Source: a virus. From it: a stretch of 38,350 bases of DNA. Position 1 is the first letter of the stretch; each line of letters starts with the position of its first letter. The translations under genes were made by a program, and so were the position numbers. The DNA lies in the UHGV virus genome UHGV-0182861; one strand, 5' to 3'. The notes under the pieces are model-generated. The model worked only from the letters and a program-made list of their open reading frames with translations, was not told the origin of the DNA and made no database searches. Positions 3,412 to 25,902 of the stretch are shown piece after piece.

Positions 3412-6400
3412 GCGTCGTATCCCCCCTGATCGCTGTAGTTACTCCTGGCTTTTGCCTTCAGCCTGCGTTCACGTTCATCAAGCTGGCGGGCCACCTCCCG
3501 CGCAATATCCTGCGCACTTTGTCCTGGCTGCGTCTGAATGATGATCTGCGTCGGTGCCTCAATCCGTTGAACGGGCGGCACAGTGGCTGCACGACTCAAC
3601 ATCGCTTCGCCGCCTTTCGCGGGAAGTGCCAACGGATGCAACGGTGGAAGCTCTGCAGGCGCGGCAGCAACACCCATCATTCCGGCAACAACGGCAGCCA
3701 GTGCAGCTGTATTTCTCCGGCTGGTCACATTTGCCGGGCCGTTAACAATTTCCGGCCCGTTTTCACCGACGATGCCAAACTGCCCGCGCGGGATATAGCC
3801 GCCGCTGTCATACATCCCCGCAAAGCCATATCCCCATGACGGAAAACCACCCGATGGCATCATCACTTTACCGTCTGCATTCACCGTCGCAGGTTGCTGA
3901 CGCGTCACGCTTTCCGGCAGTTTCGCCTTTGCAGCCTCTTTACTGACAATGCCGAGTTTCTCCAGCAACCAGGAAACGCCAGATTTCAGGGAGTCCAGCG
4001 GATGCATGACCATATTCAGCCCTTCCGCCAGTGCCTCCCCGAATCTCCGCCCCATTGCCGCTGCACTCTGCAGTTCGGCAGAGGTCGACTTAACGGGCGT
4101 CAGCAGATCAGTAAACCAGCCCCACAGCGCCTGCACTTTGTCGCCAATCCACTGGAACACAGGCTTAAGCGGTTCGAACGCTGCACTGATGGGACCTGCC
4201 GCCGCTTTGAATCCTTCCACCACGCCACCGAGAAATGCGGTGATGGGTTGCCAGTATTTCCAGACAACCAGTGCCACACCCGCCAGTGCAGCAACCACAA
4301 GACCTATCGGACTGAGCAGAGCACCTAACAGACCAGATACGGCATACAGGGCAACGCGCAACATCGCCAGTGGACCAGATGCCAGTACTCGCAGCACCGT
4401 GCCTGTGGCAGCCAGCCCGCCGCGTAGTGCTGCCAGTGGATTCATAAACATCACAGCAACCGCACGTAAACCGGATAATCCAGACCGCAACAGTGCAACC
4501 GGCGCATCTGCTACAGTTTTCAGGACATTTCCCGTCAGTGATGCCGTGCGGTGCAAAGACGACAACGGCGCAGTAAGTAAACCCGCTGCGTTGCCCGATG
4601 AAGCAAGCCCGCGTCGCAGCAGTGCCAGTGGAGCGCCAGCCAGCCAGGACAACGCGCTGCTGGTTCGAGTTACTGCTGCCGTAACGGAAGGTAACGTTTT
4701 GATACCCAGCACAGAGAATCCCAGACGGATCACTGCCAGCGGCCCCAGCACTGCAGCCAGCGCCACCGCTAAGGTGCCGAGGCCTACGGTAACCGCAGCC
4801 ACAACAGCCGCTACTTTCATCAGTGTGCCTGTCAGTTCCGGGTTAGCTTCCACCCAGCGGCGCAACGCCCCCGTAATGCTTTTCACCGTGTACAGAATAT
4901 CCATCAGCGGCTGGCGCAGCGTTTCGCCCAGGCTGCTGAAGGTGTTCTGCGCTCCGGTTTTAACCAGCAACCACTGAGCAGAAAGTGAGTCCTTGTTGAT
5001 GTCGGATTCTTTCTGCATGGAACCGAGCGCATCATTGCCCGCTGTCAGTTTTAGCTGGCGCTGCAGTTCCGGCAGGTTGTTTGCCAGTTTCGCCGCGTCA
5101 TCACCAAACTCTTTACCAAACAACATGGTCATGGCAGACAGACGCTTGTCCTGCGGCAGTGCGTTCACCTTCTCCAGCACACGCTGGATAGTTCCCATCG
5201 CATCCTTCGTCATCTGCTTTTCAATCACTTCAGGATTGAGTTTCAGCAGATTCATCCCTTCAAAGAAACTCTTGCTTTGCATGGTGGCAATGGACAATTC
5301 ACGCACCATCGCGTTTGCTGCACTGGCTGCAACCTCCGGCGCAGCGCCCAGTGTCAGAAAGGTGGAACCCAGTGCCGCCGCTTTACGATAATCCAGACGG
5401 TCAGCCACACCGCCCAGACGTTGCATGACATCAATGATGTCCGCCCCTTTTGACATGGCGTTATCATCCAGATAGTTCAGCGCATCGCCGAGCTGTTCAA
5501 TATTACGGGTAGGTATTTTGTAGAGCTGGGCGATTTTCCCCAGACTTTCTGACAGTTCATCCGCTGGCAGCTCAAAGGCTATTGCCGCCTTTGCCGCCGT
5601 ACTGGCGAAGGCCAGCAGGTCACGTTTCTGGTCTTCCCAGCTGTCGTCAGGGTTTGCGACGTTCATACGCGCACCACCTTCAACCAGTGCAGCGAAGTCC
5701 ACCGCACCGTTTTCCATCGGCAACTGTTCGCTGGCAGCCTTGATGGCATCCTGCATTTCATAAAAACGTGCAGTGCGGTTGCCATTATCGTCACGCAGAC
5801 CATTGACCTGCTTTGCCACACCTTTCATGGCATCTTCCATGCTGGTATAGCTTTTTACTGCCGCCATCACTGGTGTCCCCATTGCCAGCCCTGCAGCCGT
5901 GGTGGTGGCTCCGGCTCCTGCAATACGATCACGCACCTCCAGCGAACGGGCATAACTGGCACGCGCCGCATTCATCCTGCGCTGAGCTTCCCCCAGTCGC
6001 TTCAGCCGCGCCTCCTGTTTTGACAATTCCTGGTTATAACGTGATGTTTCACGGGCTAAACGGGCAGTTGCTCCCGCATCATCTTTCGCAGAAATTCCCG
6101 CCCGATACAGTTCTGCACGCACAAGCGCCGTTTGCTTCTGCAAATATTTTTGTTGTTCTTCCAGGCGTTGGACTGCCAGCGTTTGCCGACCTAAAGCCAC
6201 AAGGTGCCGTTGTGATGGTTGTTCCATCGCTTCCAGCTCAGAACTAAGCAAATTTGCCTTCTGTCTGGCATAGTTCAGCCTGTCGCCTAACCTTTTGTTA
6301 TCGGCCTGCAGCTTGCGAAATTTTTCCAGGCTGTTACCCGCCTGATTGAGTTGCTTTAATGCGTCACGGGAGTTTCTGATTGCGCCAGCCAGCTCTTTCG

Positions 6401-17342: not shown

Positions 17343-17543
17343 TCAGTCCCATAGCTGGACGGTCTGCACGGTGGTGGTCGGAATGTCCGGCAGCTCCACC
17401 TGCAGCCCGTGAGGTAAAAAGGGGCCGTGTTCGGCAAGCCCCGGATTTGCCTTCAGTACCTGCTCCGTGACACCCTGTGTACGCCCGTAATGACGCCAGC
17501 AAAGCGCGTCCACCGTGTCATACTGATGCGCACGTACTTTCAT
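17343..17543 (-). CDS. X: Tail protein gpX
   Basis: MKVRAHQYDTVDALCWRHYGRTQG...LWD aligns with recalled P2 gpX. Confidence 0.9.
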   Translation of the reverse strand: MKVRAHQYDTVDALCWRHYGRTQGVTEQVLKANPGLAEHGPFLPHGLQVELPDIPTTTVQTVQLWD

Positions 17544-18070
17544 CAGATAAGCTCCACTGTGCAGTGCGGCGCATCCTGCACCCGGCTGACGGCCCAGCGG
17601 GCGTCACGCCACAAATCACCGCTGGCTTCTGCCAGTTCTTCACCTCGCTTCACACCGGATGCCGTGGCGTCATAGTCCTGATATCGTTCGTTGAGCATGG
17701 CGCGTGCCCAGCAGTAAACCGCGTTGAAATAGTGCTGAATGCGCTCACTTTTCCCGTCCAGCTGTTCTGCCGGAACCTCTGCCAGCGAGGCATACCCCAG
17801 CATCTGCTGGCGTCTGCGAAACTCATACAGCTCTGCGTTGACCTCCGAAATTGCCGACAGCGCAACCTGCTTTAAACGCGGCTGCGTCACCGTGCCGTCA
17901 GTGCGCATCACGCTGCGAAACTCCGACAGGTCCACATCAGGCCAGAACGGCGTATTTCTGATGATTTCCGCCTGTTCCGGTGCCTGTTCTGGCGCAACAA
18001 ACTTCATGCTGCTTTCTCCTGAAATAGAGGGCGGTGGACGGGGTTTTGATGTGGCGGTGCCTTTCGCCAC
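17543..18070 (-). CDS. L: Head completion protein gpL
   Basis: 175-aa product in P2 order M-L-X. Confidence 0.85.
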   Translation of the reverse strand: MAKGTATSKPRPPPSISGESSMKFVAPEQAPEQAEIIRNTPFWPDVDLSEFRSVMRTDGTVTQPRLKQVALSAISEVNAELYEFRRRQQMLGYASLAEVPAEQLDGKSERIQHYFNAVYCWARAMLNERYQDYDATASGVKRGEELAEASGDLWRDARWAVSRVQDAPHCTVELI

Positions 18071-18102: not shown

Positions 18103-18753
18103 TCAGCGGCTGTCATTGCGCAGTCTGCGCTCCAGCTGCTGTTTGTCTTTTTTCACGCCACAGCGGGGATCGAGCTGTAACGCATGGTTGAGATGATTAA
18201 GGGCGGAAGCCGGATTGCTTTCACTCAGGACAGCGCCAATCGCTTTATGCAGACGCGCCCGTGACTGGTCCGGCATATCCAGACCGTCTGTCAGCTCCAG
18301 CGTCTGCAGCAACAGATCGGCATCAAAGCCGGTGGCGGCAAGCATTGCGCTCTGCGCTGCATCTGCCATTTCCTCTGCCAGCACGGTCTGCACGTTGCGG
18401 TTACCCAGCGGCATCACCCAGCCATGACGCAGGGCATGACGCCCGATCTCCAGCGCCCCGGCATAATCTCCGGCATCAATGCGCCACAGCATCACGTACA
18501 TCAGCACGTCATCCTGTTGAGCGCCTCCGGCAGCCAGGACGCCCTCCGCCCAGGCGGCATATTTCGGCAGCAGCTCCACCTTTATTTCCGCTTTTTTGAC
18601 CGTGGACTGAACGCCCTTGAGACGGCGGCGGTCTTCCGCCAGTTGCAGCAGCATCAGGTCATAGCCCGACGCGTGGCGAACACTGCCGCCCTCACGGGCG
18701 GCCTGTTCAGCCTGAACGCGCAGGCGATGCTGCCGTGCGGGACTCAGGCTCAT
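18103..18753 (-). CDS. M: Terminase small (endonuclease) subunit gpM
   Basis: 216-aa product in P2 order N-M-L. Confidence 0.85.
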   Translation of the reverse strand: MSLSPARQHRLRVQAEQAAREGGSVRHASGYDLMLLQLAEDRRRLKGVQSTVKKAEIKVELLPKYAAWAEGVLAAGGAQQDDVLMYVMLWRIDAGDYAGALEIGRHALRHGWVMPLGNRNVQTVLAEEMADAAQSAMLAATGFDADLLLQTLELTDGLDMPDQSRARLHKAIGAVLSESNPASALNHLNHALQLDPRCGVKKDKQQLERRLRNDSR

Positions 18754-18756
18754 GGG

Positions 18757-19815
18757 TTACGCTCCGGTTTCTGCTGCAGCGGCGCTGAAATCGCCAATCT
18801 GGATGTTTTCCACCAGTGCAGCGCAGCGGTAGTCCTCAACCACATAGGCTTCGTTAACGGATTCAAAATTTTCAATCCGGTCACGTTTCGGGTTGTCGAT
18901 AACTGAACGACGGCGAGTGTCTTCCTGCCAGTAGATGGACAGGTTATCCAGACGGGTGATCAGCAATGCATTCGGCGGGAAGAACGGCGCACGCACGGCC
19001 TGCAGGCCCCCCATACGTTTCTGGCTGATGATCATATCGGCAGCCAGTTTTTCACTGTTTTCCTGCTCTTTGTTGACCAGCGGGAAATACTTGTCAGACA
19101 GCAGTTCACGCCCGCAAATCACCACCAGATCGTCATCGTCCTGGTAGACAACGTCAATAAGCTCATTGACGGCATCCATCACCACGGCGTCCAGGTTGGC
19201 ATATTCGCCCCCTTTCCCGACTTTCACCGCACCCGGTGTGGTTTCACCGCCCGTGGTGGTGCTGCCCATGACGTGATCCGGTGCATCCTCACGGATTTTC
19301 TGTAACCAGCCTTTGTTCACATCCTGCAGCAGCGGGTTTTCGCTACGGTTGGAGGTTTTCGCACGCTTCACGCCGTTAAAGCCGATCATGATGCGGTCCA
19401 GTGCCTGACGTTTCACGATGGCGTCACGAATACGCACCTGGAAATCCTGAAACTTCGCCCACAGGTCCAGCTTCGCGTAGGTCAGTACCGTGTCAAAGTT
19501 GGTCTGCTCGCATTTGTATTCCACATCGACCATCAGCGTCGGATCGACAGGTTCACGCTCTTTCGCGGTGGTGTCAGTGGTTCCGGCAATGGTGCTGCCA
19601 ACACCCAACCCCAGCAGCTGACCGGACTGCTCAGTCACTGGCGTGACGTTAATCAGCGTCAGGAAAGCGGCGGACTGCTGGATCTGGTCTTCCAGCGTCT
19701 GCTGCACGGACGGCTCCACGGTGAACTTGCTGGACAGCTCTTCAACTGCCACACCGTTCAGACGCGCCAGCTGCTGCAGGTAAGCGTTAAAAGCAAAGCG
19801 GGTATTCTTCTTCAT
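18757..19815 (-). CDS. N: Major capsid protein gpN
   Basis: 352-aa product MKKNTRFAFNAYLQQLARLNGV... resembles P2 gpN. Confidence 0.9.
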   Translation of the reverse strand: MKKNTRFAFNAYLQQLARLNGVAVEELSSKFTVEPSVQQTLEDQIQQSAAFLTLINVTPVTEQSGQLLGLGVGSTIAGTTDTTAKEREPVDPTLMVDVEYKCEQTNFDTVLTYAKLDLWAKFQDFQVRIRDAIVKRQALDRIMIGFNGVKRAKTSNRSENPLLQDVNKGWLQKIREDAPDHVMGSTTTGGETTPGAVKVGKGGEYANLDAVVMDAVNELIDVVYQDDDDLVVICGRELLSDKYFPLVNKEQENSEKLAADMIISQKRMGGLQAVRAPFFPPNALLITRLDNLSIYWQEDTRRRSVIDNPKRDRIENFESVNEAYVVEDYRCAALVENIQIGDFSAAAAETGA

Positions 19816-19831: not shown

Positions 19832-20665
19832 TCAGCAATTGGTCAGAGTGTCAGCGGGGGCGTTACCGCCTGTTGCACGCTGGCGGTAGTCCTGGCGGCT
19901 GTCTTCTTGACTCAGCTTATTCACCAGTTCGTTAAAGGCGGTCTGCTGTGCCTGCAGGGCAGTCTCCAGCTCAGACAGGCGTTCTTCCTGCTCAGACAGG
20001 GATTTTTCGGTGCGCACGCTCAGGTTTTGCTGCTCAGTGGCGACCAGCTCCACGGCCTTATGCACATCAGAGAATCGGGCATCATCGGACTGCTCTTTTT
20101 TGGTGAACAGCGCCGTGACGCGGGCAAACAGGGACGGTTTGTCATCCTGGATTTCTTCCAGTTCGATCACCGTTTCCTCTGCAGCGGTAAAGAGATTGGC
20201 AGGATTCTGCTTGCGGTTTGCCAGCGGGTTATGGGCTGCACTGGCGCTGAATGTCAGCATTTCCGTACCCAGACTGGCGGGATCATCAGTGGCAGCCAGG
20301 CCGACCAGGTAGGCTTTGCCCGTATCAGCAAACTTCGGGCTGACTTCCATAGAGGTGAATAATTTCTGTCCTTTTTTCACCAGTTCCACCAGGGACTCCG
20401 TTGGCTCAACGTCGGCATACAGCGCCATCTTGCCTGCCAGCGGGCCTTCCGTGATTTCTTCAGCAAACAGCGCCGTCACCTTGCCGTAGCGGTTAAAGGT
20501 GCTGTCCGGCAGATAAGACTTGATGTGCTCAAGGTTAATCAGCGCGGTATACACCGCCGGGTTGTAGCTGGCTGCCATCTGTTCCAGCCATTCACGCTGG
20601 ATTTCGCGTCCGTCGGTAGTGGCACCTTCCACCCCGATGCGAAAACGCTTTGCTTTCACTGTCAT
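19832..20665 (-). CDS. O: Capsid scaffolding protein gpO
   Basis: 277-aa product divergent from P across a late promoter region. Confidence 0.9.
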   Translation of the reverse strand: MTVKAKRFRIGVEGATTDGREIQREWLEQMAASYNPAVYTALINLEHIKSYLPDSTFNRYGKVTALFAEEITEGPLAGKMALYADVEPTESLVELVKKGQKLFTSMEVSPKFADTGKAYLVGLAATDDPASLGTEMLTFSASAAHNPLANRKQNPANLFTAAEETVIELEEIQDDKPSLFARVTALFTKKEQSDDARFSDVHKAVELVATEQQNLSVRTEKSLSEQEERLSELETALQAQQTAFNELVNKLSQEDSRQDYRQRATGGNAPADTLTNC

Positions 20666-20807: not shown

Positions 20808-22574
20808 ATGAACACCACACTGACACCCGCAGATCTCGATCCCCGTCGGCAGGCCATGCTGCTGTACTTTCAGGGATACCGCGTAGCCCGCATTGCTGAA
20901 ATGCTGGGCGAGAAAGTTGCAACCGTTCACAGCTGGAAAAAACGCGACAAGTGGGGTGACTATGGGCCGCTGGACCAGATGCAGCTCACCACCGCCGCAC
21001 GCTACTGCCAGCTCATCATGAAGGAGCACAAAGAAGGGAAAGATTTCAAAGAGATTGACCTGCTGGCGCGCCAGTCGGAACGCCACGCGCGGATCGGCAA
21101 GTTTAACAATGGCGGCAACGAAGCCGACTTAAACCCTAACGTCGCCAACCGTAACAAAGGCCCGCGCCGTCAGCCGGAAAAGAATGTTTTCACCGATGAG
21201 CAGATTGAGAAGCTGGAAGAAATCTTCCATTCCTCCATGTTCAACTACCAGCGCCACTGGTGGGAAGCCGGAAAAACCAACCGCATCCGGAACCTGCTGA
21301 AGTCACGCCAGATCGGCGCGACCTTTTACTTTGCCCGTGAAGCCCTGATTGACGCCCTGCTTACCGGACGTAACCAGATTTTCCTTTCCGCCAGCAAGGC
21401 ACAGGCCCACGTCTTTAAGCAGTACATCATCGACTTCGCCAAAGAAGTGGAGGTGGAGTTGAAAGGCGATCCGATGGTGCTTCCTAACGGGGCCACGCTT
21501 TACTTCCTCGGCACCAATGCCCGCACGGCCCAGAGTTATCACGGCAACCTGTATCTGGATGAATATTTCTGGATACCGAAATTCCAGGAGCTGCGCAAAG
21601 TGGCTTCCGGTATGGCTATTCACAAAAAATGGCGACAAACCTATTTTTCCACGCCATCCAGCCTGACACACAGTGCTTATCCGTTCTGGTCCGGTGCGCT
21701 GTTCAACCGTGGGCGCAACAAGGCCGACAAGGTGGACATCGACCTGTCCCACAGCAATCTGGCCCCCGGTCTGCTGTGCGCAGACGGGCAATACCGCCAG
21801 ATAGTCACCGTGGAAGATGCGGTGCGCGGCGGCTGTAACCTGTTCGACCTTGACCAGTTGCGCATGGAGTACAGCCCGGACGAATACCAGAACCTGCTGA
21901 TGTGCGAGTTTGTGGACGATCTCGCGTCCGTGTTCCCGCTCAGCGAGCTGCAGGCGTGCATGGTGGACAGTTGGGAAGTCTGGACCGACTTTCATGCTCT
22001 GGCCCTGCGCCCGTTTGGCTGGCGCGAAGTGTGGATCGGTTATGACCCGGCAAAAGGTACGCAAAACGGCGACAGCGCCGGGTGCGTGGTGGTGGCTCCG
22101 CCAGCCGTGCCGGGCGGTAAGTTCCGCATTCTTGAGCGTCACCAGTGGCGCGGGATGGACTTCCGTGCCCAGGCGGACGCCATCAAAAAACTGACTGAAC
22201 AGTACAACGTGACCTATATCGGTATCGACTCGACAGGTGTCGGTCACGGGGTTTATGAGAACGTAAAAGCGTTCTTTCCTGCCGTCCGGGAGTTTGTCTA
22301 CAACCCCAACGTTAAAAACGCCCTGGTACTCAAGGCCTACGACATTATCAGCCACCGCCGTCTGGAGTTTGACGCCGGGCACACCGACATTGCGCAGTCC
22401 TTTATGGCAATCCGTCGCGCCACCACCGCCAGCGGCAACCGCCCAACCTATGAAGCCAGCCGCAGCGAAGAAGCCAGCCATGCCGATCTGGCCTGGGCAA
22501 CAATGCACGCACTGTTTAACGAACCGCTGCAGGGCGAATCCGCCAATACCAGCAATATTGTGGAGATTTTTTGA
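20808..22574 (+). CDS. P: Terminase large (ATPase) subunit gpP
   Basis: 588-aa product aligns closely with recalled P2 gpP (MNTTLTPADLDPRRQAMLLYFQGYRV...MCEFVDD...SRSEEASHADLAWATMHAL). Confidence 0.95.
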   Translation: MNTTLTPADLDPRRQAMLLYFQGYRVARIAEMLGEKVATVHSWKKRDKWGDYGPLDQMQLTTAARYCQLIMKEHKEGKDFKEIDLLARQSERHARIGKFNNGGNEADLNPNVANRNKGPRRQPEKNVFTDEQIEKLEEIFHSSMFNYQRHWWEAGKTNRIRNLLKSRQIGATFYFAREALIDALLTGRNQIFLSASKAQAHVFKQYIIDFAKEVEVELKGDPMVLPNGATLYFLGTNARTAQSYHGNLYLDEYFWIPKFQELRKVASGMAIHKKWRQTYFSTPSSLTHSAYPFWSGALFNRGRNKADKVDIDLSHSNLAPGLLCADGQYRQIVTVEDAVRGGCNLFDLDQLRMEYSPDEYQNLLMCEFVDDLASVFPLSELQACMVDSWEVWTDFHALALRPFGWREVWIGYDPAKGTQNGDSAGCVVVAPPAVPGGKFRILERHQWRGMDFRAQADAIKKLTEQYNVTYIGIDSTGVGHGVYENVKAFFPAVREFVYNPNVKNALVLKAYDIISHRRLEFDAGHTDIAQSFMAIRRATTASGNRPTYEASRSEEASHADLAWATMHALFNEPLQGESANTSNIVEIF

Positions 22575-23299
22575 TGCCCCCAATCCCAACTAACCTCATG
22601 ACTATCGCGGGACTTCCGGTGGATAGCTCTTTCTTTGCTTACCAGTATGAGTGGAACACTAGCCCAAAGAGTAGAAACCGTGTACTCACAAAAATGCGCC
22701 AGGCAGGCGCGAATTTCTTTTTTTCCTATGAAGCCCTGAACGATGCACTGCATACCGGGCGTAACCAGATTTTCCTCTGCTGCAGCACAGCATCTGCCCT
22801 GACAGTCAAAACCTATATGTCAGCCTTTATAGATCAGGCCGCAACCTGGACACACCTTGGGAAAATAAAATCAGGTAAAGCGCATCTGGAACTACCTAAC
22901 GGTGCGGTCATTTATTTTATCGGGCCGAAAAGTCTCGCCGCCGCGCTCCATGGAAACGTCTATGTGTCAGAGTATGCCTGGGCGGACTCCCCGAAAAATA
23001 TGATTGCGCTCGCCAAAAGCCTGTCCATGCACGCGCGCTATCACGCTACCTACTACACCACCCCAAGCCCCAGCCCGGAAGCATGGCGGGAATACAAGAA
23101 GCTGATTGCCCGCAACAGCACAACCAGCATGATTTTTACCGCTGATGACGCTGCAGCATCCGGGGCAACGCTCGCAACCGGAGCCGCGCTCTTTGATGAT
23201 GAATGGCTTAATGACATGAAAAAAGAGTTATCAGCAGAGGACTGGAAAATGCTGTTTATGTGCGAATGGCCCCAGACTGACAAGGAGCAGGCGGCATGA
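22571..23299 (+). CDS. Terminase ATPase-domain paralog (242 aa), inserted between P and Q
   Basis: Aligns to gpP residues about 145-400 (FAYQYEW/FNYQRHW, RQAGANFFFSYEALNDALHTGRNQIFL / RQIGATFYFAREALIDALLTGRNQIFL, TYYTTPS / TYFSTPS, LFMCEW / LLMCEF) but lacks the gpP N-terminal domain and the C-terminal nuclease; start overlaps P stop (TGATG), stop overlaps Q start (ATGA). Confidence 0.75.
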   Translation: MMPPIPTNLMTIAGLPVDSSFFAYQYEWNTSPKSRNRVLTKMRQAGANFFFSYEALNDALHTGRNQIFLCCSTASALTVKTYMSAFIDQAATWTHLGKIKSGKAHLELPNGAVIYFIGPKSLAAALHGNVYVSEYAWADSPKNMIALAKSLSMHARYHATYYTTPSPSPEAWREYKKLIARNSTTSMIFTADDAAASGATLATGAALFDDEWLNDMKKELSAEDWKMLFMCEWPQTDKEQAA

Positions 23300-24336
23300 G
23301 CAAACGTAAAAACAAGAATAACCGCGCAGCAGTAGATCACAACGCAAATTCAGGCGGTGCTGCGGCAGAGGCGTTCAGCTTTGGCGACCCGGTGCCGGTG
23401 TTAGACCGACGCGAATTGCTGGACTACGTGGAATGCGTGCAGATGGATCGCTGGTATGAACCGCCGGTGAGCTTTGACGGACTGGCGCGGACCTATCGCG
23501 CCGCCGTGCATCACAGCTCACCGATTGCCGTTAAGCGTGACATTCTCAGCAGTACCTATATCCCGCACCGCCTGCTCAGCCAGCAGGCTTTTGCCCGTTT
23601 CGTCCAGGATTATCTGGTGTTCGGTAACGCCTATCTGGAAAAGCGCACCAACCGGCTCGGCAGCGTTCTCTCGCTGGAGCCAGCACTGGCGAAGTACACA
23701 CGGCGCGGCGTGGATCTCGACACCTACTGGTTTGTGCAGTATGGCATGACCACGCAGCCCTATGAATTTACGCAGGGCAACATCTTTCATCTGCTGGAAC
23801 CGGATATTAATCAGGAGATTTACGGGCTGCCCGGCTATCTCTCCGCCATCCCGTCAACCCTGCTCAACGAGTCAGCAACGCTGTTTCGCCGGAAGTATTA
23901 CATCAACGGCAGCCACGCGGGTTTCATCATGTACATGACCGACGCAGCACAGAATCAGGAGGACGTGAACAATATCCGCCAGGCAATGAAAAGCGCCAAA
24001 GGGCCGGGCAACTTCCGCAACCTGTTTATGTATTCGCCCAACGGTAAAAAGGACGGCATCCAGATAATCCCGTTGTCGGAAGTTGCGGCAAAGGATGAAT
24101 TTCTGAACATCAAGAACGTGAGCCGTGATGACATGATGGCTGCTCACCGCGTGCCGCCGCAGATGATGGGCATCATTCCCAACAATACCGGCGGCTTTGG
24201 TGATGTGGAAAAGGCCAGCCGCGTCTTTGTCCGCAACGAGCTGATGCCGCTGCAGAAGCGACTGCAGGAGCTTAACGACTGGCTGGGCGAAGAAGTGATC
24301 CGCTTTGAGCCCTACACCTTAGATATTGAAAACTAA
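23296..24336 (+). CDS. Q: Portal protein gpQ
   Basis: 346-aa product aligns with recalled P2 gpQ (FSFGDPVPVLDRRELLDYVEC...ATLFRRKYY...VFVRNEL). Confidence 0.95.
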   Translation: MSKRKNKNNRAAVDHNANSGGAAAEAFSFGDPVPVLDRRELLDYVECVQMDRWYEPPVSFDGLARTYRAAVHHSSPIAVKRDILSSTYIPHRLLSQQAFARFVQDYLVFGNAYLEKRTNRLGSVLSLEPALAKYTRRGVDLDTYWFVQYGMTTQPYEFTQGNIFHLLEPDINQEIYGLPGYLSAIPSTLLNESATLFRRKYYINGSHAGFIMYMTDAAQNQEDVNNIRQAMKSAKGPGNFRNLFMYSPNGKKDGIQIIPLSEVAAKDEFLNIKNVSRDDMMAAHRVPPQMMGIIPNNTGGFGDVEKASRVFVRNELMPLQKRLQELNDWLGEEVIRFEPYTLDIEN

Positions 24337-24344
24337 TACAGAGA

Positions 24345-24360
24345 GCGCTTTGCAAAGCGC
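24345..24360. terminator. Bidirectional hairpin terminator between convergent Q and the TIR gene
   Basis: Perfect 16-nt palindrome gcgctttgcaaagcgc with T-rich flanks on both strands. Confidence 0.6.
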
Positions 24361-24370
24361 CCTCTAATTT

Positions 24371-25804
24371 TCATTCAATACTATCTAGACGACTAACATT
24401 CATTTTATTGAGAAAGTCTCTATTAAAACCGAAATGATACCAGTTACTAGTATTTCGCTGGGCCTCACCCTCTGTCAGCTTTTGAGCCAAAAGTTTACTG
24501 TCATCGATTCCGGTAATAACTGCAATACTCTTGAATCCTCTATGCTGTATTGCTCTTGTAAATAGAGGATATTTCTCATAGTGCCCGGAATACAACAACA
24601 TTTGCGGGTACCAAAAAATACCGGGATTAATGAAGGATATCATAAGAGCAACAAGATCAGCTTGTTTCAAATCATCGAAAGACACATCATCTCTAGTTGC
24701 ACTTTGCTTTACTAACTCAGCAACAGGGGAATACAGTCGATAGTTTTCAGGGGACAATTTACTTTGAAGGTAATCAGAGCTTAAATATAACTCACTGTAA
24801 TTAGCAAACTCCATTCCCGGACTGGTTATATGATCGGGTAGCAAATAAGATGTATGCAGTAATGTATGTACATGCTGGAAAGCTTCAATTTTTATTAAAG
24901 CCGCCAAAATATATAAAAACGTTTCATACGCAAAAATCTGATGGGGCAAAAACCATATTTCATTATATGAATTTACATTTTTCGGACGATTTCTAATCGC
25001 TAACATTACTTCCATAAACTGTAATAGTGCTTTGGAAAAGTCTTCGCCCTGCGTATCACCCTCAAGTAAAACCCAGTCTGTAATGGCATCCCTAACGGCA
25101 ATAAGCTCTTTATGAATTTGCAAAACTTCCGCTGCAAAATCTTCAGTAGTTGGGTTTGTTACGACTTGTAGTGAGATACAATAATTTCGGCACACCTCTA
25201 AAAATTGCCTTCTGCAATCCTTTAATGTCTGCTTTTGATTTAAGACAGCTGATTTTAAAGTTTGAAATTTTGCATGAATTTCATACGTCGGTTTTGACGT
25301 GTCTTGCTCTAAATAAACCGGAGGCTTACCTAATGGTGGCTTAGTAAATTCTGGTTTTCCATAAAGCAACCTGATTAAACGTTCCCAATTATCATTTTCT
25401 TTTTCTGGTGTTGAAAAATCAATATAGATTCTAGACTTCAGAAAGATTGGAGTATACGGCTCTCCATTATCTTTGTACTCAAATATTAATGGTATAAATT
25501 TGGACTGCGACACGGATGAATATATTTCCTGGGAAATTATCATCGACTCAACACCGACACCATCTTTTCTTAAATCGGCTTTTTCTGAGTATTTTTTATC
25601 ACAAATGACTAAAACATGCGTAACCGTTTCATCTTGAACCATTCTTTCCATGTAATAATTTTTATCATCCCCTTCTTTCAAGTCATAAATATCTATGACA
25701 GTTTCAACTCCATCTGCCGCCAATCGTTCAGCCATATCTTTGATATGTTGCTGATGAGTTTTACTTGACCAACTATAGGATATAAAAACTTTTGGCTGGA
25801 TCAT
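24371..25804 (-). CDS. TIR-domain protein with about 330-aa uncharacterised C-terminal domain (477 aa); candidate anti-phage effector
   Basis: N-terminus KVFISYSWSS...VETVIDIYDL...VLVICDKKY...GVGVESMIISQE follows the bacterial TIR pattern (FISYS strand, conserved Glu in GV-x-V-E). Strong SD AGGGAGG and own promoter. About 33% GC versus about 53% for phage core. Confidence 0.7.
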   Translation of the reverse strand: MIQPKVFISYSWSSKTHQQHIKDMAERLAADGVETVIDIYDLKEGDDKNYYMERMVQDETVTHVLVICDKKYSEKADLRKDGVGVESMIISQEIYSSVSQSKFIPLIFEYKDNGEPYTPIFLKSRIYIDFSTPEKENDNWERLIRLLYGKPEFTKPPLGKPPVYLEQDTSKPTYEIHAKFQTLKSAVLNQKQTLKDCRRQFLEVCRNYCISLQVVTNPTTEDFAAEVLQIHKELIAVRDAITDWVLLEGDTQGEDFSKALLQFMEVMLAIRNRPKNVNSYNEIWFLPHQIFAYETFLYILAALIKIEAFQHVHTLLHTSYLLPDHITSPGMEFANYSELYLSSDYLQSKLSPENYRLYSPVAELVKQSATRDDVSFDDLKQADLVALMISFINPGIFWYPQMLLYSGHYEKYPLFTRAIQHRGFKSIAVITGIDDSKLLAQKLTEGEAQRNTSNWYHFGFNRDFLNKMNVSRLDSIE

Positions 25805-25883: not shown

Positions 25884-25902
25884 CTCGTATCCCCGCCACG
25901 CC
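25884..25902 (-). other. Putative cos cohesive-end site
   Basis: Minus-strand GGCGTGGCGGGGATACGAG resembles the recalled 19-nt cohesive ends of P2 (GGCGAGGCGGGGAAAGCAC) and 186 (GGCGTGGCGGGGAAAGCAT). Confidence 0.5.

What the first reader, a model, noticed from the sequence alone, without database searches (positions are those of the whole stretch)
22571..23299. Intact paralog of the terminase ATPase domain inserted between P and Q
In P2 the P stop and Q start overlap directly. Here a 242-aa ORF is inserted with the same overlap-coupling at both ends (TGATG with P, ATGA with Q). It aligns to the central ATPase core of gpP, lacks the gpP N-terminal domain and C-terminal nuclease, and carries Ser where gpP has the Asp of the hhhhDE Walker B-like motif (VYVSEY versus LYLDEY). 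This looks like a maintained decoy or modulator of packaging, for example interference with co-resident or superinfecting P2-like phages or satellites, not a recombination scar.
Basis: partly seen in the sequence, partly recalled or inferred. Interest (0 to 1): 0.7.

Follow-up and report, generated by a model that had tools for sequence, protein, structure and literature searches.

The report
Phage 186 W-type terminase ATPase paralog
The ORF between the terminase and portal genes is a real, selected gene, but it belongs to the family of coliphage 186 gene W, a stand-alone copy of the terminase ATPase domain; here its metal-binding residues are altered and its biochemical role is still unknown.

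Summary
A 241-aa ORF (ATG 22574 to stop 23299) sits between gpP and gpQ with TGATG and ATGA overlaps. It aligns to gpP residues 142-368 (33% identity, E 2e-32). It lacks gpP's N-terminal and nuclease domains and reads VYVSEY where gpP reads LYLDEY.

It is not a peculiarity of this prophage. Phage 186 has the same gene, annotated "W protein; similar to Orf12", and so do PSP3, Yersinia and Aeromonas phages and prophages of many Enterobacterales. In a small NJ tree the window protein groups with 186 W (100% bootstrap).

It is under purifying selection (dN/dS about 0.2-0.3, against 0.07 or less for gpP and gpQ), so it is not a scar. It folds as a complete TerL ATPase domain.

In its clade the Walker A Thr is Asp (Asn here) and the Walker B Asp is Ser, while the Q motif, Lys, Arg, catalytic Glu and C motif stay invariant.

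Across the P2 family, 61 of 61 full terminases keep five catalytic residues; only 13 of 58 stand-alone copies do.

It is expressed only from the late operon, so superinfection exclusion is unlikely. The best reading is a nucleotide-binding, poorly catalytic accessory of the packaging machine. A conflict or decoy role remains open.

The parts
20808..22574 (+). gpP, terminase large subunit (588 aa): Terminase_5 N-domain, Terminase_6N ATPase, Terminase_6C nuclease. It is the parent-type gene of the paralog and the first gene of the late P operon.
   Evidence: Pfam 3e-65 / 1.7e-49 / 3.3e-27; PHROG terminase large subunit
22562..22576 (+). gpP/W junction: GGAG Shine-Dalgarno (22562-22565) inside the last gpP codons, and TGATG stop/start overlap (22572-22576).
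   Evidence: Sequence. The same GGAG and overlap drive Q directly in P2, and drive W in 186 and other loci.
22574..23299 (+). W-like gene ('X'): 241-aa stand-alone terminase ATPase-domain paralog.
   Evidence: 33% identity to gpP 142-368, E 2e-32; Terminase_6N only; AF2 pLDDT 81.5, best PDB matches T4 gp17 and P74-26 TerL ATPase domains; groups with 186 W; dN/dS 0.2-0.3.
22640..22645 (+). Adenine-binding Q motif, Tyr23-Gln24.
   Evidence: Q24 invariant and Y23 nearly invariant in 27 family members.
22691..22714 (+). Walker A-like loop K40-M-R42-Q43-A-G45-A-N47. gpP has KSRQIGAT. The family has Asp at position 47; this allele has Asn.
   Evidence: Alignment A1; motif table; the exact allele is seen on 71 contigs.
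22952..22975 (+). Walker B strand GNVYVSEY: Ser132 (22967-22969) replaces the Walker B Asp; the catalytic Glu133 (22970-22972) is retained.
   Evidence: 44 of 47 scorable cluster representatives read SE; the other three read AE, LE or GE.
23051..23068 (+). C (coupling) motif YYTTPS.
   Evidence: T159, T162 and S165 are invariant in A1.
23282..23299 (+). W/gpQ junction: AAGGAG Shine-Dalgarno (23282-23287) and ATGA start/stop overlap (23296-23299).
23296..24336 (+). gpQ portal protein (346 aa), last gene of the operon.
   Evidence: Pfam Phage_portal 3.1e-19; PHROG 68 at 6e-175.
24339..24366 (.). Terminator-like hairpin after gpQ (readable on both strands); end of the P-W-Q transcription unit.
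   Evidence: It is in the same position as tW of 186 and tQ of P2.

Best explanation
Identity (confidence about 0.9). The ORF is this prophage's member of the family of coliphage 186 gene W. It is a stand-alone copy of the terminase large-subunit ATPase domain, encoded exactly between the terminase (gpP) and portal (gpQ) genes. It is transcribed from the late P promoter and translationally coupled to both neighbours.

Mechanism (inferred, confidence about 0.4). The protein folds as a complete TerL ATPase domain and keeps the nucleotide pocket: Q motif, Walker A Lys and Arg, catalytic Glu and C motif. Its two Mg2+ ligands are rearranged: the Walker A Thr is Asp (Asn in this allele) and the Walker B Asp is Ser. 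It therefore probably binds nucleotide but hydrolyses it poorly or not at all.

It has neither gpP's N-terminal domain nor the nuclease, so it can act only through protein contacts. The most likely contacts are the ATPase-ATPase interface of the gpP ring or the gpP/portal docking surface. On this reading it serves as a non-catalytic accessory or modulator of the phage's own packaging motor during late infection.

Shown: homology, architecture, synteny, selection, motif states and fold. Inferred: nucleotide binding, loss of catalysis, binding partners, and the effect on packaging.
For: Family membership. 186 carries 'W protein; similar to Orf12' between the P and Q homologs, and PSP3 has the same. 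The window protein and 186 W form one clade apart from 14 full terminases in a 32-taxon NJ tree (100% of 200 bootstraps).

Synteny. The same P-W-Q order with overlapping stops and starts is found in Limnobaculum, Buttiauxella and Pantoea prophages, in Yersinia and Aeromonas phages and in two further prophages. All 21 stand-alone hits among the best IMG/VR loci directly follow a TerL nuclease domain, and 20 of them precede a portal gene.

Selection. Nine close copies are all intact. Pairwise dN/dS is 0.18-0.45 for X, against 0.00-0.07 for gpP and 0.04-0.07 for gpQ in all informative pairs.

Fold and pocket. The fold is a full TerL ATPase domain. The invariant columns of the clade concentrate on the ATPase motifs.

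Active-site state. All 47 scorable cluster representatives have Asp at the Walker A Thr position and no Asp in Walker B, and all keep the catalytic Glu. All 61 full-length P2-family terminases keep the five catalytic residues, against 13 of 58 stand-alone paralogs.

Expression and viability. There is no promoter-like site in front of the ORF. Isolated, plaque-forming phages carry the gene: 186, PSP3, vB_YpM_MLG42, vB_YenM_201.16 and phiO18P.

Recurrence. Three loci carry a stand-alone copy that is 63-69% identical to its own terminase. The same architecture therefore arises, or is renewed, repeatedly next to the packaging genes.
Against: No experiment or interaction model was available here; binding to gpP or to the portal is pure inference.

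P2 packages DNA without any such gene, although its gpP ATPase domain is 93% identical to that of 186.

Only about 2-5% of P2-like phages and prophages carry one. A core mechanical role is therefore unlikely.

The gene evolves several-fold faster than gpP and gpQ.

A related clade sits in the early operon after gpA, not beside the packaging genes.

Close relatives carry substitutions at otherwise invariant P-loop residues (D47N here, R42H, Q43L).

Taken together these features fit an accessory or conflict gene as well as a motor subunit. Deep nodes of the large tree are weakly supported (9-45%).
Confidence: 0.42

Rival explanations
1. Counter-defence sponge. The paralog is a look-alike of the terminase ATPase domain. 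It titrates host or rival-element factors that bind or inhibit TerL, such as terminase-targeting inhibitors of the Listeria TerI type, and so protects the real motor.
For: Distribution is patchy even among close relatives. The gene evolves fast. It originates recurrently from the resident terminase. Catalytic residues are lost repeatedly. One clade lies in the gpA-to-portal accessory region, where this window carries bSEFIR. Terminase-targeting prophage proteins exist (TERi). TerL ATPase domains are direct targets of immune sensors.
Against: [quoted passage not shown] An extra ATPase domain would therefore be a liability for sensor-type defences rather than a shield. No inhibitor that targets P2-type TerL is known to me. 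No PADLOC model matches. The strongest conservation lies in the nucleotide pocket, not on an obvious surface.
Confidence: 0.2
2. One reading: a dominant-negative poison subunit that enters the terminase rings of co-resident or superinfecting P2-like phages, or of satellites, and blocks their packaging.
For: The protein has the ATPase fold with altered Mg2+ ligands. From general knowledge, Ser/Thr-to-Asn changes at the same P-loop position make small GTPases dominant negative (Ras S17N). E. coli genomes can hold up to four matching places, that is, several P2-like terminase genes. One clade is expressed from the early operon, ahead of any terminase.
Against: The gene lies in the late operon and has no promoter-like site of its own. 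It should be silent in a lysogen and cannot exclude superinfection. P4-type satellites package with the helper's own gpP (general knowledge), so a poison would hit the producer too. Young copies are most similar to their own terminase (63-69%), the opposite of what a weapon that spares self would need. The same X allele occurs with gpP alleles that differ by dN 0.06 in the ATPase domain, so there is no sign of allele-specific self-immunity.
Confidence: 0.12
3. A working ATPase with an unusual metal site. The Asp now in Walker A takes over the role of the lost Walker B Asp, and the protein hydrolyses ATP as an auxiliary motor or remodelling enzyme.
For: The two changes go together. 186 W has Thr plus Asp, while every member of the window clade has Asp plus Ser, Gly, Ala, Leu or Pro, so one carboxylate is always kept near the metal site. 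The catalytic Glu, Lys, Arg, Q motif and C motif are invariant in the clade.
Against: This allele has Asn, not Asp, and is common (71 contigs). Close relatives carry R42H or Q43L. The Walker B position tolerates Ala, Leu, Gly and Pro. Other stand-alone lineages have lost the Lys or the Glu outright.
Confidence: 0.1
4. A tolerated leftover. A partial duplication of gpP persists mainly because gpQ translation is now coupled to its stop codon, and the protein itself does nothing useful.
For: Constraint is relaxed relative to the neighbours. P-loop variants occur in close relatives. P2 does without the gene.
Against: dN/dS is well below 1. Length and domain boundaries are conserved down to 27-46% identity across genera. 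32 columns are invariant. Three loci carry copies that are most similar to their own terminase. A copy also exists in the early operon, where no coupling argument applies.
Confidence: 0.07

Closest known systems
Coliphage 186 W protein (AAC34147.1 / NP_052250.1; UniProt O80303) and PSP3 orf2
   Same: It occupies the same slot between the P and Q homologs, with stop/start overlaps. It is ATPase domain only and of similar length (248 against 241 aa). It is in the same clade in the small NJ tree. GenBank already notes it as similar to the terminase gene.
   Different: Identity to the window protein is only 31-32%. 186 W keeps the canonical Walker A Thr and Walker B Asp (KSRQIGAT, VYLDEF), whereas the window clade has Asp/Asn and Ser. 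From memory, not verified here: W was defined by conditional-lethal head mutants of 186. An amber codon in W could also be polar on the translationally coupled portal gene.
P2-family terminase large subunit gpP (Terminase_5 + Terminase_6N + Terminase_6C)
   Same: The ATPase-domain fold and motif order are the same; identity is 33% over gpP 142-368.
   Different: It has no N-terminal gpP-specific domain and no nuclease. The two Mg2+ ligands are changed. It evolves several-fold faster.
Phage T4 vs.8
   Same: It is an uncharacterised stand-alone protein homologous to the ATPase domain of its phage's terminase (bioRxiv 10.64898/2026.04.30.721860).
   Different: It belongs to a different phage family and is reported with conserved Walker A and B motifs. 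It was not compared with the window protein here. It triggers EcAvs2 on co-expression.
Listeria prophage TerI (TERi system)
   Same: It is a prophage-encoded protein that acts on a terminase complex and blocks DNA packaging (bioRxiv 10.1101/2025.02.27.640495).
   Different: TerI is a small protein with no reported relation to TerL. It is expressed in the lysogen against invaders and has dedicated self-immunity proteins. None of these features is seen here.
Stand-alone TerL ATPase paralogs encoded after gpA (P0097, P0119, P0118)
   Same: Same fold family. Most members share the Asp-in-Walker-A and Ser/Pro-in-Walker-B state. They are also found in P2-like elements.
   Different: They lie in the early or replication operon, and P and Q abut directly in those genomes. 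They form a separate clade (100% bootstrap), and its link to the window clade is weakly supported (14%).

Membership tests
186 W-type stand-alone terminase ATPase paralogs | Encoded between the terminase large-subunit gene and the portal gene, on the same strand, with stop/start overlaps | tested here: met
   TGATG at 22572-22576 and ATGA at 23296-23299. The same layout is seen in 186, PSP3 and seven other loci.
186 W-type stand-alone terminase ATPase paralogs | Homologous to 186 W and closer to it than to any full-length terminase | tested here: met
   The X+W clade has 100% bootstrap in the 32-taxon NJ tree. In the 119-taxon tree the clade with 186 W holds 37 stand-alone proteins and no full-length terminase, but support is only 45%. 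Long-branch attraction is not excluded.
186 W-type stand-alone terminase ATPase paralogs | ATPase domain only (no Terminase_5 N-domain, no nuclease) | tested here: met
   The only Pfam family reaching its cut-off is Terminase_6N. The fold matches isolated TerL ATPase domains.
186 W-type stand-alone terminase ATPase paralogs | Needed for head formation or DNA packaging (genetic definition of W) | not testable with these tools
   The primary papers (Portelli et al. 1998; Hocking and Egan 1982) are not in the library. Only the GenBank annotation was seen.
Functional terminase large subunit (TerL) | Terminase_6N ATPase domain | tested here: met
   55.5 bits against a cut-off of 22.
Functional terminase large subunit (TerL) | C-terminal RNase H-like nuclease domain | tested here: not met
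   There is no Terminase_6C hit. The protein ends at the position of gpP residue 368.
Functional terminase large subunit (TerL) | Canonical Walker A Ser/Thr and Walker B Asp | tested here: not met
   Asn47 and Ser132 here. All 61 full-length P2-family terminases examined are canonical.
Known anti-phage defence proteins (PADLOC-DB 2.0) | Match to a defence-system protein model | tested here: not met
   No family at E <= 0.01 for the window protein, 186 W or three gpA-linked paralogs.

The most novel reading that the evidence does not exclude
Stand-alone terminase ATPase domains form a recurrently evolved class of pseudo-ATPases in the P2 family. They are born repeatedly from the resident terminase gene and then lose catalysis. 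They act as ring-poisoning or decoy subunits in conflicts over DNA packaging, between phages or between phage and host defence. The Walker A Asp/Asn plus Walker B Ser state of the window clade would be the signature of a natural dominant-negative P-loop.
Probability: 0.25. Interest if true: 0.75.

Novelty: new member of a known kind. Interest (0 to 1): 0.4.

Why it matters
For this window, the result removes an apparent anomaly. The 'inserted' ORF is the local version of a gene catalogued in phage 186 since the 1990s.

The wider survey is more interesting than the single locus. A viral packaging ATPase has spawned stand-alone copies of its motor domain at least a few times. These copies are kept under selection beside the terminase and portal genes, or after the replication gene. 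Unlike every full terminase examined, most of them have lost one or more catalytic residues.

No biochemical role is assigned to any of them, as far as I could find. Because 186 and P2 are tractable and differ naturally in having W, the question is directly testable.

Tried and rejected
Literature. Ten full-text searches and several look-ups found nothing on the function of 186 W. Portelli et al. 1998, Hocking and Egan 1982 and the Christie and Calendar P2 review are not held.

Databases. PADLOC and NCBIfam gave no match for the paralogs.

Co-evolution. A Mantel test of W distances against gpP domains and gpQ over nine loci gave r = 0.70-0.88 for all partners (highest for gpQ). All three genes share history and four loci are near-identical, so this does not discriminate between partners.

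Deep phylogeny. In the 119-taxon NJ tree the deep nodes have 9-45% support. I therefore do not claim a number of independent origins beyond the three loci where the copy is 63-69% identical to its own terminase. Gene conversion could explain those three equally well.

P-X fusion by frameshift. A -1 slip on the T6 run before the gpP stop would enter the X frame. I rejected this as a conserved mechanism because the run is absent at the junctions of 186, Yersinia, Limnobaculum, Buttiauxella, Pantoea and Aeromonas.

Own promoter for lysogenic expression. None was found.

Interaction modelling of X with gpP or with the portal was not possible with the single-chain structure tool.
Full report
**1. 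What is in the sequence**

The window is a P2-like (Peduoviridae) prophage. The head and packaging genes around the finding are:

| Gene | Coordinates | Strand |
|---|---|---|
| gpL | 17543-18070 | - |
| gpM | 18103-18753 | - |
| gpN | 18757-19815 | - |
| gpO | 19832-20665 | - |
| gpP, terminase large subunit | 20808-22574 | + |
| the ORF in question | to 23299 | + |
| gpQ, portal | 23296-24336 | + |

The ORF list starts the ORF at TTG 22571. One codon later, ATG 22574 overlaps the gpP stop as TGATG and is preceded by GGAG at 22562-22565, so the product is most likely 241 aa. Its stop overlaps the gpQ start as ATGA, with AAGGAG upstream.

BLASTP against the window's own gpP gives 33% identity, E 2e-32, over gpP residues 142-368. 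Pfam sees only the Terminase_6N ATPase domain in the ORF. gpP has the Terminase_5 N-domain, Terminase_6N and the Terminase_6C nuclease.

The Walker B strand reads VYVSEY against LYLDEY in gpP. The Walker A loop reads KMRQAGAN against KSRQIGAT. In P2 itself P and Q share one base, with nothing in between.

**2. It is the phage 186 W gene family**

A tblastn search of 50,697 phage records found close copies in only three records, representing two phages:
- Yersinia phage vB_YpM_MLG42, 88.8% identity.
- Escherichia phage 500465-1, present as two records.

The weaker hits, however, fall on a separate short gene in phage 186. GenBank U32222.1 annotates three genes in order: Orf12 (P2 P homolog), then 'W protein; similar to Orf12' (248 aa), then Orf2 (P2 Q homolog). 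They share stop/start overlaps. PSP3 has the same gene, noted 'similar to 186 W'.

The same P-W-Q layout occurs in many other places:
- Yersinia phage vB_YenM_201.16.
- Aeromonas phage phiO18P.
- Prophages of Limnobaculum, Buttiauxella and Pantoea whose W-like proteins are only 33-45% identical to the window protein.
- Two further prophages.

Among the best 79 IMG/VR loci, 21 encode a stand-alone copy. All 21 directly follow a terminase nuclease domain, and 20 precede a portal gene.

In a 32-taxon NJ tree of the shared 231 columns, the enterobacterial stand-alone proteins, including the window protein and 186 W, form one clade apart from 14 full terminases (100% of 200 bootstraps). In a 119-taxon tree no full-length terminase falls inside that clade, but its support is only 45%.

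I therefore file the ORF as a divergent member of the W family, with the caveat of long branches.

**3. How common it is**

The exact window protein is recorded on 71 contigs. Its 90%-identity cluster has 739 member sequences from Escherichia, Salmonella, Klebsiella, Citrobacter and Enterobacter. The 186 W cluster has 553 members.

It is nonetheless a minority gene:
- About 21-23 of about 490 P2-like phage records contain two terminase-like places.
- Among 5,426 complete E. coli genomes, 21 carry the window type and 8 carry the 186 type, out of roughly 1,160-1,240 genomes with a P2-type terminase.

A profile search of 1.84 billion representatives returned 543 relatives. About 40 of the best 150 are complete stand-alone proteins of 215-290 aa, interleaved with full terminases.

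**4. Selection**

All nine close copies examined are intact. Pairwise Nei-Gojobori dN/dS is 0.18-0.45 (typically 0.2-0.3) for the ORF. It is 0.00-0.07 for gpP and 0.04-0.07 for gpQ in all informative pairs. The gene is therefore under purifying selection, but it is 4- to 10-fold less constrained than its neighbours.

Across genera, W-like proteins are 27-46% identical where the cognate gpP ATPase domains are 64-93% identical.

The window allele is a chimera of two allele types, and alleles are shuffled relative to gpP and gpQ alleles. A recombination scar or untranslated remnant is excluded.

**5. Fold and active site**

An AlphaFold2 model built on 27 family members has mean pLDDT 81.5 and pTM 0.82; only residues 1-20 are disordered. 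Its best PDB matches are the ATPase domains of T4 gp17 and of the P74-26, D6E, HK97 and Sf6 terminases.

Within the window clade the invariant columns concentrate on the nucleotide pocket:
- Q24 of the Q motif.
- K40, R42, Q43, G45 and A46 of Walker A.
- R63-N64-Q65.
- G127, Y130 and E133 of the Walker B strand.
- T159, T162 and S165 of the C motif.

All 47 scorable cluster representatives have Asp at the Walker A Thr position and no Asp in Walker B (Ser in 44; Ala, Leu and Gly once each), and all keep the catalytic Glu. 186 W has the canonical Thr plus Asp. One carboxylate is thus always kept near the metal site, which could be a compensated swap.

Against a fully working site:
- The window allele has Asn.
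- Close relatives carry R42H or Q43L.
- Other stand-alone lineages have lost the Walker A Lys (7 cases) or the catalytic Glu (7 cases).

Overall, 61 of 61 full-length terminases keep all five catalytic residues, against 13 of 58 stand-alone proteins. These counts are not phylogenetically independent. Catalysis is evidently dispensable for the stand-alone form in general. In the window clade the pocket itself is still constrained.

**6. Origins and a second genomic context**

In phiO18P, L031 and L032 the stand-alone copy is 63-69% identical to its own terminase, and at most 43-47% identical to any other. Either the architecture has arisen several times with the same boundaries at the same site, or these copies are kept similar by gene conversion.

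A separate clade (100% bootstrap) is encoded directly after the replication gene gpA in the early operon of P2-like elements in which P and Q abut. Translational coupling to the terminase and portal genes is therefore not a universal requirement.

**7. Expression**

No sigma-70-like promoter precedes the ORF. The unit ends at a hairpin after gpQ. In 186 and P2 this operon is driven by the activator-dependent late promoter (annotations). The protein should therefore be made late in lytic growth, in step with gpP and gpQ, and not in the lysogen.

**8. Interpretation**

The identity is secure. The mechanism is inferred.

I favour (about 0.4) a nucleotide-binding, poorly catalytic accessory that contacts the gpP ATPase ring or the gpP/portal interface and modulates the phage's own packaging.

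The following features fit a conflict-related role equally well: patchy distribution, P2's independence from the gene, fast evolution, recurrent birth, and the copy in the early operon.

A sponge for terminase-directed factors is possible (0.2). However, a 2026 preprint shows that the ATPase domain alone activates EcAvs2 and Upx, and that T4's stand-alone paralog vs.8 is toxic with EcAvs2. That makes a simple decoy against sensors unlikely.

The remaining rivals are an unusual but active ATPase (0.1) and a tolerated leftover (0.07).

**9. Verdict**

The gene is a new, active-site-altered member of a known but biochemically uncharacterised kind.

Noticed in passing
window 24371-25804 (-): A 477-aa SEFIR/TIR protein matches the PADLOC bSEFIR defence model (9.6e-103). 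It lies between the portal terminator and the cos-like site. In related prophages the same spot holds a different gene: a reverse transcriptase family protein in L023 and a different TIR protein in L024 and in phage 500465-1.
   Followed up: partly
window 25890-25902: A 13/13 match to the first 13 bases of the phage 186 cohesive end (GGCGTGGCGGGGA), in reverse orientation. This is probably the cos site, separated from gpQ by the bSEFIR gene.
   Followed up: partly
window 22574-23299 compared with L003, L022: The window W-like allele looks chimeric. Roughly the first 75 residues match the 235-aa allele type (L022) and the rest match the 241-aa type (L003). gpP matches L022 and gpQ matches L003, so a crossover lies inside the gene.
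   Followed up: partly
L003/L019 (R42H), L021 (Q43L), window (D47N): Three different substitutions hit otherwise invariant P-loop residues in closely related E. coli prophage copies. The isolated phage vB_YpM_MLG42 has the family consensus. R-to-H at the same position also occurs in the phiO18P paralog.
   Followed up: partly
L025 5001-5750; L027 5001-5681; L030 5001-5738: A distinct clade of stand-alone terminase ATPase paralogs (motif GDVYxSEW) is encoded just after gpA in the early operon of P2-like elements whose P and Q genes abut.
   Followed up: partly
L018 3847-4620; L031 4001-4852; L032 4001-4753: Stand-alone copies that are 63-69% identical to the ATPase domain of the terminase encoded immediately upstream. 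They reflect recent independent duplications or gene conversion.
   Followed up: partly
window 22566-22576: A run of six T precedes the gpP stop (gagATTTTTTGATG). A -1 slip there would read into the W-like frame and give a gpP-W fusion. The run is absent at the same junction in the other loci examined outside this close group.
   Followed up: partly
window 22695-22711 (+): A terminator-like GC hairpin followed by a T-run lies inside the ORF, exactly over the Walker A codons. It is not conserved at the protein level in other alleles and may be chance (10 sites found against 5.4 expected in the region).
   Followed up: no
L002 (Escherichia phage 500465-1, NC_049342.1) 4001-5758: In this record both the W-like gene and the portal gene are split into two CDSs. 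This looks like sequencing frameshifts rather than biology.
   Followed up: no
window 22697-22787 (ORF bases 124-214): The Walker A to TGRNQ stretch of the ORF shows 77-81% nucleotide identity to gpP genes in more than 1,000 E. coli genomes. This is higher than the overall 33% protein identity would suggest. It could reflect strong motif constraint or past gene conversion.
   Followed up: no
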